Shown piece after piece: positions 4,712-7,113 of a stretch of 64,000 nucleotides of DNA (its first letter is position 1; each line of letters starts with the position of its first letter). The stretch is taken from NCBI RefSeq assembly GCF_009914755.1, contig NC_060933.1. One strand, written 5' to 3'. A model generated the notes under the pieces. That model was not told the origin of the DNA, ran no database searches, and saw nothing but the letters and a program-made list of their open reading frames with translations. Source of the DNA: the human T2T-CHM13v2.0 reference genome, Homo sapiens. The position numbers and the translations under genes are program-made.

Positions 4712-5170
4712 CCATACTTTATTCCAGATTATAGCTTTTCAGATATGGGCCATCTACTTACACATCTTACCAAAGTCAGGAAAAAATAAAAGAATCCAGG
4801 ATCAACCCGTTTGGACCTGAGATAGAGATACCCTTGATGCCAGCCTGTCCTTGTCTCCTGCCTGAGGGTAGATATTTGGGTTTCTATTTTAGACTCTGTG
4901 CTTGAATCCATGGGTTAATAATCAGCTTAGCATTCTGGTTCTCTGTCTGCTACAGTTATTGTCTACTACACTGCTATAGTTTGAATAATTGTCACTTCCA
5001 AAACTCATGGTAAAATTTAATTTCCAATGTGGTAATATTGAGCGTTAGGGCCTTTAATAGATGATTGGGTCATGAGAGCTCTGCCTTCATGAGTGGATTG
5101 ATTCATTCATAGATTAATGGATTAATGAGTTATCATAGGAGTTTTACTGGTAGCTTTATAAAAAGAAGAA
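4712..5170 (+). repeat. Left arm of ~460-bp inverted duplication
   Basis: Reverse complement matches 6336-6711 plus 7026-7113; twin ORFs [13 protein letters not shown] appear on opposite strands in the ORF track. Confidence 0.95.
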
Positions 5171-5385
5171 AGATCTGAGCTAGCACACTCAACCCCCTCA
5201 CTATGTGATGCCCAGAGCCACCTCAGGACTCTGCAGAGTCCCCACAGCAAGAAAATCCTCAACAGGTGCAGCCCCTCAATCTTGGATTTATCATCCTCCA
5301 TAATTGTAAGAAATAAATTTCTTTTCTTTATAAATTACCCAGTTTCAGGTATTTTGTTACAGGTAAGAGAAAAAGGACTAAGACA
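4972..5385 (+). mobile_element. MaLR LTR, MSTD-like solo LTR
   Basis: Starts tgctatagtttgaat, ends ggactaagaca; internal gattaatggattaatg and aataaatttcttttctttataaattacccagtttcaggtatt. Confidence 0.88.
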
Positions 5386-5488
5386 TTTACCAAAAGCAGA
5401 TATGGCCCTAGTCTTCAGTCTGGATTGCCACATTGGCAATCTGATGCTAACTGCCTGCCCCACCACCAGGGACTACCTACCAAGGAAA

Positions 5489-6060
5489 TTCTTCTTCTTC
5501 TTCTTCTTCTCCTTCTCCTTCTCCTTCTCCTTCTCCTTCTCCTTCTCCTCCTCCTCCTCCTCCTTCTCTTCTCCTTCTCCTTCTTCTCCTCTTCTTTCTT
5601 CTTCCTTCTTCTTCCGTCTTCTTCCTTCTTCTGCTGCTGCTTCTTCTGCTGCTGCTGCTTCTGCTGCTTCTTCTGCTGCTTCTGCTGCTTCTTCTGCTGC
5701 TTCTGCTTCTGCTTCTTCTTCTTCTTCTCTTCTTTCTTCTTCCTTCTTCTTCCTTCTTCTTCCTTCTTCTTCTGCTGCTGCTTCTTCTGCTGCTGCTTCT
5801 TCTGCTGCTTCTTCTGCTGCTTCTTCTTCTGCTGCTTCTTCTGCTGCTTCTGCTTCTTCTTCTGCTTCTTCTTCTTCTTCTTCTTCTTCTTCTTCTTCTT
5901 CTTCTTCTTCTTCTTCTTCTTCTTCTCCTTCTTCTTTCTTCTTTCTTCTTCTCCTCCTCCTTCTTCTCCTTCTTCTCCTTCTTCTCCTTCTTCTTCTCCT
6001 CCTCCTCCTCCTCCTCCCCCTCCTCCTCCCCCTCTTCCTCTTCCTCTTCCTCCTCTTCTC
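5489..6060. repeat. Compound trinucleotide array (CTT/CTC/CTG on +; GAA/GAG/GCA on -) derived from an Alu tail
   Basis: About 570 bp, nearly all pyrimidine on +; pure (TTC)20 at 5866-5926; explains the four low-complexity ORFs at 5282-6165. Confidence 0.97.
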
Positions 6061-6063
6061 ATA

Positions 6064-6333
6064 CTTTTGCTCCTGTTGGGCTGGAGTGCAATGGCGCGAT
6101 CTTGGCCCACTGCAACCTCTGCCTCCCGAGTTCAAGTGACTCTCCTGCCTCAGCTTCCCGAGTAGCTGGGATTACAGGCATGAGCCACCACGCCCAGCTA
6201 ATTTTGTATTTTTAATAGAGATGGGGTTTCTCCATGTTGTTCAGGCTGGTCTCGAACTCCCAACTTCAGGTGATCCACCCACCTCAGCCGCCCAAAGTGC
6301 TGGGATTACAGGCGTAAGCCACTGCGCCTGGCC
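6064..6333 (-). mobile_element. AluSp-like element
   Basis: ggggtttctccatg and gcaatggcgcgatc diagnostics; TSD aattcttctt at 5487-5496 and 6334-6343 brackets Alu plus expanded tail. Confidence 0.88.
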
Positions 6334-6335
6334 AA

Positions 6336-7113
6336 TTCTTCTTTTCATAAAGCTACCAGTACGACTCCTATGATAACCCTTTAATCCATTAATCTTCATG
6401 AGTGAATCAGTCCACTCATGAAGGCAGAGCTCTCGTGACCTAATCATCTATTAAAGGCCTTAACGCTCAGTACCACCACATTTGAAATTAAATTTCACCG
6501 TGAGTTTTGGAAGTGACAATTATTCAAACTATAGCAGTGTAGCAGACAATAACTATAGTACGCAGAGAACCAGAAAACTAGGCTGATTATTAACCCATGG
6601 ATTCAAGTACAGAGTCTAAAACAGAAACCCAAAAATCTACCCTCAGGCAGGAGACAAGGACAGGCTGGCATCAAGGGTATCTGTATCTCAGGTCCAAAAG
6701 GGTTGGTCCTGTAATTATTTATTTACTTATTTATTATTATTATTATTATTTGAGACAGAGTCTCACTCTGTCACCCAGGCTGAAGTGCAGTGGCACGATC
6801 TTGGCTCACTGCAGCCTCCACCCTCCAAGTTCAAGCGATTCTCCTGCCTCAGCCTCCCCAGTACCTGGAATTACAGGCACCTGCCACCACGCCCAGCTAA
6901 TTTTTGTATTTTTAGTAGAGACGGGGTTTCACCATCTTGGCCAGGCTGGTCTTGAACTCCTGACCTCATCCCGGCCTCCCAAAGTGCTGGGATTACAGGC
7001 ATGAGCCACCGCGCCCGGCCAGTCTTGGATTCTTTTAATCTTTCCTGACTATGATAAGATGGGTAAGTAGATGGCCCATATCTGAAAAATTGTAATCTGG
7101 AATCAAGTATGGT
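6336..7113 (-). repeat. Right arm of the inverted duplication (5' half of MSTD LTR plus its flank), interrupted by an Alu
   Basis: Reverse complement of 4712-5170, about 40 differences in 460 bp. Confidence 0.95.
6712..7020 (-). mobile_element. AluS element with (AAT)n-type tail and a short left-arm deletion
   Basis: Dimeric Alu; tgacctcatcccggcc lacks the ggtgatccgccc block; absent from the left arm, so inserted after the duplication. Confidence 0.9.

What the first reader, a model, noticed from the sequence alone, without database searches (positions are those of the whole stretch)
4712..7113. Ancient fold-back inverted duplication (~460-bp arms) enclosing an Alu-seeded repeat expansion
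Seen: 4712-5170 is repeated in reverse complement at 6336-6711 plus 7026-7113 (about 40 differences in 460 bp; ~95% over 6598-6711). The arms include ~260 bp outside the MSTD LTR, so this is a duplication and not two LTR insertions. Inferred order: MSTD insertion, fold-back with a ~320-bp spacer, AluSp into the junction, tail expansion; a second Alu entered the right arm some time after the duplication. Inference: the insertions lengthened the spacer and broke an arm, as expected if a fragile palindrome was defused. The arms could still form a long dsRNA stem (ADAR substrate) in any read-through transcript, or mediate recurrent inversion of the loop.
Basis: partly seen in the sequence, partly recalled or inferred. 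Interest (0 to 1): 0.8.

Follow-up and report, generated by a model that had tools for sequence, protein, structure and literature searches.

The report
Old local inverted duplication with Alu insertions
A 459-base stretch of human chromosome 9 was copied backwards next to itself tens of millions of years ago and later picked up two Alu elements and a long TTC repeat; it is real but looks like an ordinary, decaying rearrangement scar.

Summary
4712-5170 is repeated in reverse complement at 6336-6711 plus 7028-7112: 459 aligned positions, 39 mismatches, one 2-bp indel, 91.5% identity. It is a duplication, not two insertions. The outer 260 bp occur nowhere else in the genome. The inner 199 bp belong to a dispersed LTR whose other scored copies are at most 81% identical.

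The LTR runs unbroken from the left arm into the loop, so the left arm is read as the source. Before the Alus arrived the spacer was 318 bp. Both Alus lie on the minus strand. One sits at the spacer/copy junction, and its tail position holds a 570-bp TTC-rich array. The other splits the right arm and has a 6-bp target duplication.

Mismatches are spread evenly, so there is no sign of gene conversion. Divergence matches that of AluS-like insertions.

My reading is a neutral relic of one fold-back or template-switch event in an anthropoid ancestor. The "defused fragile palindrome" idea is not supported, because a 318-bp spacer already lies in the low-fragility range. Editing and loop inversion could not be tested. 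A second, older unique inverted duplication in the same window (32714-33343) shows this kind is common. Interest is low to moderate.

The parts
4712..5170 (+). Left arm, taken as the source copy: 260 bp of unique sequence (4712-4971) plus the first 199 bp of a dispersed LTR (4972-5170)
   Evidence: alignment; unique part found only here and in the right arm; LTR limits; the LTR alignment runs unbroken across 5170/5171
4972..5385 (.). Solo dispersed LTR of about 414 bp. It is older than the duplication
   Evidence: 2731 first-look candidates, 40 scored, the 39 non-self copies 77-81% identical; modal start 4971/4972 and modal end 5385; pairwise distance to other copies 0.19-0.36
5171..5488 (+). 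Original single-copy spacer (318 bp): the rest of the LTR (5171-5385) plus 103 bp of unique sequence
5489..6058 (-). Tail array of Alu1: 570 bp, 94% pyrimidine on the + strand with no A. It reads (GAA)n, (CAG/AAGCAG)n and (GGA)n on the Alu strand. The longest pure TTC run is 20 units (5866-5925)
6059..6333 (-). Alu1. Its 5' end lies 2 bp from the start of the inverted copy. Candidate target duplication AATTCTTCTTTT at 6334-6345, matched at 10 of 12 positions by 5487-5498
   Evidence: 7SL model, minus strand; genomic relatives 89-91% identical; 6.3% from the majority of 29 relatives; flanks
6336..6711 (-). Right arm, inner part: inverted copy of 4797-5170
6712..7021 (-). Alu2 with its T-rich tail (6712-6744), inserted into the right arm. 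GTCCTG (6706-6711) and GTCTTG (7022-7027) flank it; the left arm has one copy
7028..7112 (-). Right arm, outer part: inverted copy of 4712-4796

Best explanation
This is a neutral relic of a single local inverted duplication. In an anthropoid ancestor, a DNA end or nascent strand that had reached about 5488 turned back. It copied 5170 down to 4712 off the complementary or same strand (a fold-back or template switch at a fork or a break), then rejoined at 7113. The result was a 459-bp inverted repeat with a 318-bp loop. Afterwards an Alu landed in the T-rich inner end of the new copy by ordinary L1-type integration at TTCTTCTTTT/CA. Its tail, seeded by that TTC-rich target duplication, grew into a 570-bp TTC-rich array. 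A second Alu split the right arm. Since then both arms have decayed independently. Nothing indicates a function. Shown here: the structure, the uniqueness of the arms, the LTR continuity, the Alu orientations and flanks, and the even spread of mismatches. Inferred: the copying mechanism, the order of Alu1 and the duplication, and the age.
For: The arms are 91.5% identical over 459 positions, while other scored LTR copies reach at most 81%. The 260-bp non-LTR part has no third copy in the assembly, and neither does the spacer's unique part. The LTR alignment to other copies runs unbroken across 5170/5171, so arm and loop are collinear on the left. That fits a turned-back copy and excludes an inverted loop. 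The Alu1 flanks read AATTCTTCTTTT|CATAAAG on the right and AATTCTTCTT... on the left. This is a canonical T-rich nick site (recalled L1 endonuclease preference) with a 12-bp duplication spanning the spacer/copy junction. The Alu2 flanks duplicate a 6-bp site that is single in the left arm. Mismatches are not clustered: the longest perfect run is 48 and the permutation p is 0.38. The non-LTR and LTR parts are equally diverged, 91.25% and 91.84%. Per-arm non-CpG divergence is 3.6% (32/447 halved). That is in the range of Alu1 (11/231 = 4.8%) and Alu2 (14/237 = 5.9% against a mixed reference), so decay is at about the local neutral pace. A second unique inverted duplication lies in the same window, and millions of inverted duplicates have been catalogued (PMC5398296, sections 6 and 12), so the kind is common.
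Against: No microhomology is visible at either junction, although after 8.5% decay this is weak evidence. The left copy of the Alu1 target duplication cannot be told apart from the TTC array. Alu1 does not look younger than the duplication (4.8 +/- 1.4% against 3.6 +/- 0.6%), whereas the proposed order predicts it should be no older. In the LTR part, 11 of the 15 polarised changes lie on the right-arm lineage and 4 on the left (21 outgroup copies chosen by the non-duplicated LTR half). That is uneven, but binomial p is 0.12. Two of the window's eight near-full-length Alus lie in the 1236-bp pre-insertion structure (expected 0.12, Poisson P 0.007, a post hoc test). 'Left arm is the source' assumes the loop was never flipped by recombination between the arms.
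Confidence: 0.7

Rival explanations
1. One coupled event: the inverted copy was made during the retrotransposition of Alu1. After reverse transcription reached the Alu 5' end, the growing strand continued on a nearby template. That template was either the upstream DNA strand (a retroelement-bridged fold-back) or a local + strand transcript (a chimeric retrocopy reading [copy of 4712-5170]-TT-[Alu]-[A tail] on the minus strand). The strand then joined at 7113.
For: The Alu1 5' end lies 2 bp from the first base of the inverted copy, and its tail lies against the spacer. A retroelement bridging a fold-back has this layout, and on the minus strand so does a chimeric retrocopy. L1-bridged fold-back inversions are documented in tumours (PMC7058536, passages). 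Alu1 and the arms are not separable in age. The right-arm lineage carries more changes (11 against 4), as error-prone copying might give. Chance placement of an Alu within about 12 bp of the junction in a 1.2-kb structure is a few percent.
Against: A plausible Alu1-only target duplication spans the junction, with AA plus TTCTTCTT on both sides. It implies the junction existed before the Alu. The T-rich inner end of the copy is itself a good integration site, which explains the placement. The TTC array is most simply seeded by that duplicated TTCTTCTT. No target duplication flanks the Alu-plus-copy unit as a whole: 5460-5488 and 7113-7145 show no match. There is no excess of A>G over T>C between the arms (8 against 10), so no edited-RNA signature. 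The 11:4 asymmetry is not significant.
Confidence: 0.08
2. A selected hairpin-RNA locus: the arms are kept because a read-through transcript folds into a long stem that is edited by ADAR or cut into small RNAs.
For: The predicted + strand RNA 4700-7125 pairs 427 of 459 arm positions in register. The arms alone cofold at -737 kcal/mol, against -213 for shuffled controls. Counting G-U pairs, 94.8% of positions pair. The locus lies in an intron of a predicted + strand lncRNA (hub annotation). A published survey argues that some expressed inverted duplicates are functional (PMC5398296, abstract).
Against: Arm divergence is at about the local neutral level and evenly spread. A 316-bp Alu was tolerated inside one arm. 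No RNA family matches apart from Alu-derived ones. At 94.8% pairing the stem falls below the >300 bp and >96% paired class, which is the rare one: 2,018 of 5.13 million predictions, while about 1 million are simply longer than 300 bp (PMC11838218, section 10). No expression or editing data were available. LOC107987108 appears in 2 papers, neither relevant by its listing.
Confidence: 0.04
3. A formerly fragile palindrome whose survival depended on being broken up by the Alu insertions.
For: Two Alus lie in a 1236-bp target where 0.12 are expected from the rest of the window (post hoc P 0.007). Both increase the distance between the arms or interrupt an arm.
Against: The structure was born with a 318-bp spacer. 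In yeast Alu inverted-repeat assays, going from a 12-bp to a 100-bp spacer lowers recombination 300-fold. Going from 12 to 200 bp lowers rearrangements about 20-fold, and 1.5 kb lowers them only 31-fold (PMC10164571, passages). The insertions would therefore change little. The second inverted duplication in the window (243-bp arms, 144-bp spacer) has survived longer, at 86% identity, with no insertion at all. Both Alu sites are A/T-rich runs of the sort Alus favour.
Confidence: 0.05
4. Two independent insertions of the same repeat in opposite orientation, or a transposon with long terminal inverted repeats.
For: Part of each arm (199 bp) is a dispersed LTR.
Against: 260 bp of each arm are unique in the assembly. 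The arms are 91.8% identical in the LTR part, against at most 81% for any other scored copy. No other copy of the whole unit or of the spacer exists.
Confidence: 0.01

Closest known systems
Intergenic and intronic 'inverted duplicates' of mammalian genomes (Inverted Repeats Finder catalogues; Chen et al. 2017, PMC5398296)
   Same: Two reverse-complementary arms around a short spacer, partly in non-repetitive DNA, able to fold into a hairpin if transcribed.
   Different: That catalogue takes spacers of at most 1000 nt. Today's spacer is 1165 bp, and one arm is split by an Alu, so the present form falls outside the definition. Only the inferred pre-Alu form (318 bp) fits. At 459 bp the arms are long for the class.
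Fold-back inverted duplications with a single-copy spacer (Hermetz et al. 2014, PMC3907307, abstract read)
   Same: A non-inverted and an inverted copy separated by a single-copy spacer that marks the fold-back loop.
   Different: Those are kilobase-to-megabase constitutional rearrangements with terminal deletions, translocations or rings, and with short inverted sequences at the spacer boundary. Here the copy is only 459 bp and interstitial, rejoins the same chromosome, and no boundary microhomology is visible.
L1-bridged fold-back inversion in tumours (Rodriguez-Martin et al. 2020, PMC7058536, passages read)
   Same: A retroelement sits between the two inverted copies, with its tail on one side.
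   Different: Those events join sister chromatids and duplicate tens of megabases. Here an Alu-only target duplication is plausible, which points to a later, ordinary insertion.
Alu-tail-derived GAA/TTC microsatellites (recalled from the Friedreich ataxia and Alu-tail literature; my search, listed only related cases such as the DM2 CCTG repeat from an AluSx, PMC3378579, and I saw listings only)
   Same: A triplet array lies exactly at the tail position of an Alu, purine-rich on the Alu strand.
   Different: The array is composite, with TTC, CTG/CTGCTT and CCT blocks. Its longest pure TTC run is 20 units.

Membership tests
Local inverted duplicate (definition of PMC5398296: arms 10-10,000 nt, spacer 0-1,000 nt) | Two reverse-complementary arms of 10-10,000 nt | tested here: met
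   459 aligned positions, 91.5% identity
Local inverted duplicate (definition of PMC5398296: arms 10-10,000 nt, spacer 0-1,000 nt) | Spacer of at most 1,000 nt | tested here: not met
   1165 nt lie between the arms today (5171-6335). The inferred pre-Alu spacer of 318 nt would meet the limit
Segmental (non-transposon) duplication rather than paired repeat insertions | Homology extends into unique sequence, and the arms are closer to each other than to any other copy | tested here: met
   4712-4974 has only the right arm as a second copy in 3.1 Gb. The LTR part is 91.8% identical between arms, against at most 81% elsewhere
Fold-back inverted duplication (Hermetz type) | Single-copy spacer between the direct and the inverted copy | tested here: met
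   5171-5488 is single-copy at this locus. Its unique part has no other match
Fold-back inverted duplication (Hermetz type) | Short inverted sequence or microhomology at the spacer/inverted-copy boundary | tested here: not met
   The spacer end ...CCAAGGAAA against the reverse complement of 5171 onward shows no match. Decay since the event weakens this test
Inversion with staggered-break duplication at its ends | The segment between the arms is inverted relative to the flanks | tested here: not met
   LTR alignments to other copies run collinearly through 5170/5171 into the loop
Retroelement-bridged fold-back or chimeric retrocopy | A retroelement lies between the spacer and the inverted copy, tail towards the spacer | tested here: met
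   Tail array 5489-6058, Alu 6059-6333, copy from 6336
Retroelement-bridged fold-back or chimeric retrocopy | No target duplication around the retroelement alone; any duplication flanks the whole unit | tested here: inconclusive
   A candidate Alu-only duplication AATTCTTCTTTT exists, but its left copy merges into the TTC array. No duplication is seen at 5488/7113
Arm-to-arm gene-converting palindrome (sex-chromosome type) | Near-identical arms or conversion tracts | tested here: not met
   8.5% mismatches. Longest perfect run 48 bp, no clustering (permutation p 0.38)
Long, highly paired dsRNA class (>300 bp and >96% paired; PMC11838218) | More than 300 bp | tested here: met
   459 positions
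Long, highly paired dsRNA class (>300 bp and >96% paired; PMC11838218) | More than 96% of nucleotides paired | tested here: not met
   94.8% (+ strand) and 94.1% (- strand) counting G-U pairs. 427/459 = 93% in the predicted fold, with a 316-nt Alu bulge
   No Dfam or RepeatMasker library is available. Shown only: a dispersed LTR of about 414 bp and two Alu-type SINEs

The most novel reading that the evidence does not exclude
The inverted copy and Alu1 arrived together. An Alu reverse-transcription intermediate, on reaching the Alu 5' end, carried on copying nearby upstream sequence, either DNA or a local nascent transcript, and then sealed the break. That would make this a fixed germline miniature of the retroelement-bridged fold-back seen so far in tumours, and a route by which retrotransposition creates hairpin-forming unique-sequence inverted repeats.
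Probability: 0.08. Interest if true: 0.55.

Novelty: new member of a known kind. Interest (0 to 1): 0.22.

Why it matters
As it stands, this is a clean, datable example of how small unique-sequence inverted repeats are born and then decay in primate DNA, with nested Alu insertions as internal clocks. It would matter more if primate orthologues showed that the copy and Alu1 arose in one event. That would tie retrotransposition to the creation of local inverted duplications in the germline. The long TTC/CTG/CCT array is a plausible length-polymorphic, structure-forming tract, but it lies in a region with no known gene.

Tried and rejected
- Orthologues: none of the searchable collections holds primate genomes, so age, loop orientation and the order of events could not be checked against other species.
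- RNA families: the Rfam scan of 3500-8500 found only Alu-derived hits, namely 7SL and Alu-borne miRNA models below their thresholds.
- First relative-rate test: the 11 outgroup LTRs had been chosen by similarity to the left arm itself, which biases the result (summed over the 11 outgroups: 42 differences unique to the left arm, 111 unique to the right arm, 21 unresolved). I redid it with outgroups chosen by the non-duplicated LTR half. Of 29 loci, 8 were dropped because the 5' half of the LTR was missing, and 21 were used.
- First Alu dating: it used an ad hoc mixed reference (25 of 35 Alus kept) and overstated Alu1, at 8.6% for non-CpG sites. A reference from the 29 closest genomic relatives gave 4.8%. 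Its 5.9% therefore rests on the mixed reference only.
- Staggered-break inversion, paired repeat insertions and a terminal-inverted-repeat transposon were considered and rejected.
- Edited-RNA template: the arm differences show no signature of one (A>G 8 against T>C 10).
- Literature: LOC107987108 gave 2 papers, neither relevant by its listing.
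Full report
**1. The observation**

The window is chr9:118,420,001-118,484,000 of T2T-CHM13 (hub note; confirmed).

The repeat finder on 4000-8000 reports three collinear inverted pairs:
- 4784-5110 with 6398-6724 (327 nt, 91%)
- 4712-4801 with 7023-7112 (90 nt, 89%)
- 5111-5170 with 6336-6395 (60 nt, 92%)

Gapped alignments resolve these into three blocks: 4712-4796 with 7112-7028, 4797-5110 with 6711-6398, and 5111-5170 with 6395-6336. 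The blocks are interrupted by an Alu at 6712-7027 and by a 2-bp indel at 6396-6397.

Counting over the 459 aligned positions gives:
- 39 mismatches (27 transitions, 12 transversions), 91.5% identity, K2P distance 0.091
- 7 of the mismatches at the 12 CpG-context positions
- 32/447 = 7.2% at the other positions

Homology ends abruptly at both ends. The blastn E-value within the window is 6.8e-155.

**2. A duplication, not paired repeats**

The window's own assembly (3.1 Gb) could be searched.
- 4712-4974 matches only itself and the two pieces of the right arm (3 matches, 2 candidates, both scored).
- 4975-5365 belongs to a dispersed family: 2731 first-look candidates, 40 scored, and the 39 non-self copies are 77-81% identical over nearly the full length.
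- 5366-5483 matches only itself.
- The search skips very common words, so 'unique' means no copy was detectable by that search.

I aligned 4800-5550 to the 40 fetched LTR copies. The 34 alignments longer than 300 nt start most often at 4971/4972 (15 of 34) and end most often at 5385 (10 of 34). The repeat is therefore about 414 bp, from 4972 to 5385.

Each arm thus holds 260 bp of unique DNA and 199 bp of LTR. The two parts are equally diverged, at 91.25% and 91.84%. The names MSTD and AluSp could not be checked, because no repeat library is available.

**3. Anatomy and order of events**

The LTR alignments run collinearly across 5170/5171 into the loop. The left arm and the loop are therefore one original stretch, and the right arm is the turned-back copy. 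This assumes the loop was never flipped by recombination between the arms. The same continuity rules out an inversion with staggered-break duplications, which would invert the loop.

Both Alus are on the minus strand (7SL-model hits).

*Alu2* (6712-7021, tail at 6712-6744) is flanked by GTCCTG and GTCTTG where the left arm has a single ATCCTG. It therefore entered the right arm after the duplication.

*Alu1* (6059-6333) ends 2 bp before the first base of the right arm (6336). At its tail position sits a 570-bp array (5489-6058). TRF calls the array period 3, TTC, 167 copies, 82% matches, with CTCCTC-type blocks at the right end. The array is 94% pyrimidine and contains no A. Its longest pure TTC run is 20 units, and its longest pure pyrimidine run is 194 nt.

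The right flank of Alu1 reads AATTCTTCTTTT|CATAAAG. The left flank reads GGAAATTCTTCTT and runs on into the array. Read as a 12-bp target duplication, this puts the nick at TTTT/CA. That is a typical site for L1-type integration (a recalled preference), and it places the spacer/copy junction 2 bp inside the duplicated target. The junction would then predate Alu1, and the original spacer would be 5171-5488, which is 318 bp.

Two caveats apply. Eight of the ten matching bases on the left cannot be told apart from the array itself. And no microhomology is visible at either duplication junction.

**4. Age and mode of decay**

Mismatches are evenly spread. The longest perfect run is 48 bp, and 38% of permutations do as well. 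There are therefore no gene-conversion tracts.

*Alu1.* Its 29 closest genomic relatives (89-91% identical) give a majority reference. From that reference Alu1 differs at 16/255 positions (6.3%), or 11/231 (4.8%) outside CpG. The relatives themselves range from 3.1% to 7.8%. Choosing the closest relatives may bias the Alu1 figure slightly downwards.

*Alu2.* It could be compared only with a mixed reference (25 of 35 Alus from the window and fetched loci), giving 27/275 (9.8%) overall and 14/237 (5.9%) outside CpG.

*Arms.* The per-lineage value is 3.6% outside CpG (32/447 halved).

All three events therefore fall in the same era, and divergence cannot order Alu1 relative to the duplication.

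With recalled neutral rates of 1.0-2.2e-9 per site per year, K2P 0.091 corresponds to roughly 20-45 million years. The LTR is much older, at pairwise distances of 0.19-0.36 to other copies.

I polarised the 16 arm differences in the LTR part using 21 outgroup copies chosen by the non-duplicated LTR half. Of 29 loci, 8 were dropped because they lacked the 5' half of the LTR. The result was 4 changes on the left lineage, 11 on the right and 1 ambiguous (binomial p 0.12). Seven of the 11 right-lineage changes are AT to GC. An earlier version with outgroups chosen by the left arm was biased and is not used. The asymmetry is suggestive at most.

**5. Would it fold, and does that matter?**

A hypothetical + strand RNA of 4700-7125 is predicted to pair 427 of the 459 arm positions in register. 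The arms alone cofold at -737 kcal/mol (+ strand) and -725 kcal/mol (- strand), against a mean of -213 for ten shuffles of the right arm.

Counting G-U pairs, 94.8% (+) or 94.1% (-) of positions pair. The longest helices without a mismatch are 75 and 58 bp.

In a genome-wide dsRNA prediction, about 1 million of 5.13 million structures exceed 300 bp. Only 2,018 also exceed 96% pairing, and those are mostly intergenic and unedited (PMC11838218, section 10). This stem falls in the common class, not the rare one.

The only annotated transcript is an intron of a predicted lncRNA. That name occurs in 2 papers, neither relevant by its listing. No editing, small-RNA or expression data could be consulted. 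The ADAR idea is therefore untested rather than refuted.

**6. The 'defused palindrome' idea**

In the yeast Alu inverted-repeat assays I read (PMC10164571, passages):
- Lengthening the spacer from 12 to 100 bp lowers recombination 300-fold.
- Lengthening it from 12 to 200 bp lowers gross rearrangements about 20-fold.
- A 1.5-kb spacer lowers them only 31-fold.

A repeat born with a 318-bp loop was thus already in the low-fragility range, and an extra 850 bp adds little.

The window supplies a natural control. A second inverted duplication lies at 32714-32956 and 33101-33343: 247 aligned columns, 26 mismatches, 8 gap positions, 86.2% identity, and a 144-bp spacer. It is unique in the assembly apart from one weak 69-bp hit. 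It is older and has survived with no insertion.

One point counts the other way. Two of the window's eight near-full-length Alus lie in the 1236-bp pre-insertion structure, where 0.12 are expected (Poisson P 0.007). That test is post hoc, and both sites are A/T-rich runs.

**7. Mechanism and rivals**

Best reading (0.7): one fold-back or template-switch copying event, followed by ordinary Alu insertions, tail-repeat growth and neutral decay.

Most interesting rival (0.08): Alu1 and the copy arrived together. The layout, [tail]-[Alu]-2 bp-[inverted copy], matches a retroelement-bridged fold-back, as described at megabase scale in tumours (PMC7058536). On the minus strand it also matches a chimeric retrocopy.
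- Against it: the candidate Alu-only target duplication, the lack of any duplication at 5488/7113, and the neat account of the TTC array as seeded by the duplicated TTCTTCTT.
- For it: the placement of the Alu, the indistinguishable ages, and the right-arm excess of changes.

A selected hairpin locus (0.04) and the 'defused palindrome' reading (0.05) have no positive support beyond what is listed above. Paired repeat insertions or a transposon with terminal inverted repeats are excluded.

**8. Comparison with what is known, and verdict**

Inverted duplicates are catalogued in millions in the human genome: 4.3 million with arms of 10-10,000 nt and spacers of at most 1,000 nt (PMC5398296, sections 6 and 12).

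The fold-back model with a single-copy spacer is established for large constitutional duplications (PMC3907307, abstract).

Triplet arrays growing from Alu tails are known. That statement is recalled; my search listed only related cases, and I saw only their listings.

This locus is a well-preserved, fairly long-armed, partly unique member of that kind. Primate orthologues would settle the one open and mildly novel question.

Noticed in passing
window 32714-32956 and 33101-33343: A second local inverted duplication: 243-bp arms, 86.2% identical (26 mismatches and 8 gap positions in 247 columns), 144-bp spacer. It is unique in the assembly except for one weak 69-bp hit, carries no inserted repeat and has no Rfam match. 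It is older than the one in the finding.
   Followed up: partly
window 5489-6058: A 570-bp composite triplet array with no A on the + strand and 94% pyrimidine. TTC blocks alternate with G-bearing CTG/CTGCTT blocks (5609-5728 and 5759-5878) and a CCT/CTCCTC block at the right end. The longest pure TTC run is 20 units (5866-5925), and the longest pure pyrimidine run is 194 nt (5865-6058). It is a candidate triplex-forming, length-variable tract.
   Followed up: partly
window 4975-5170 against 6336-6533: Of the 15 polarised arm differences in the LTR part, 11 lie on the right-arm (copy) lineage and 4 on the left. Seven of the 11 are AT to GC, whereas all 4 left-lineage changes are GC to AT. This is not significant (p 0.12), but it would be worth re-testing over the whole arm with a primate outgroup.
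   Followed up: partly
window 4712-7112: Two of the eight near-full-length Alus in the 64-kb window lie in what was a 1236-bp structure (expected 0.12, Poisson P 0.007, a post hoc test). Both have the same orientation.
   Followed up: no
window 11800-38100: The other seven inverted pairs of at least 80 nt within 10 kb in the window all lie at Alu positions (about 11.8, 17.8, 19.4, 23.8, 30.4 and 37.9 kb). They are 77-88% complementary and sit 4-7 kb apart. These are ordinary inverted Alu pairs.
   Followed up: no
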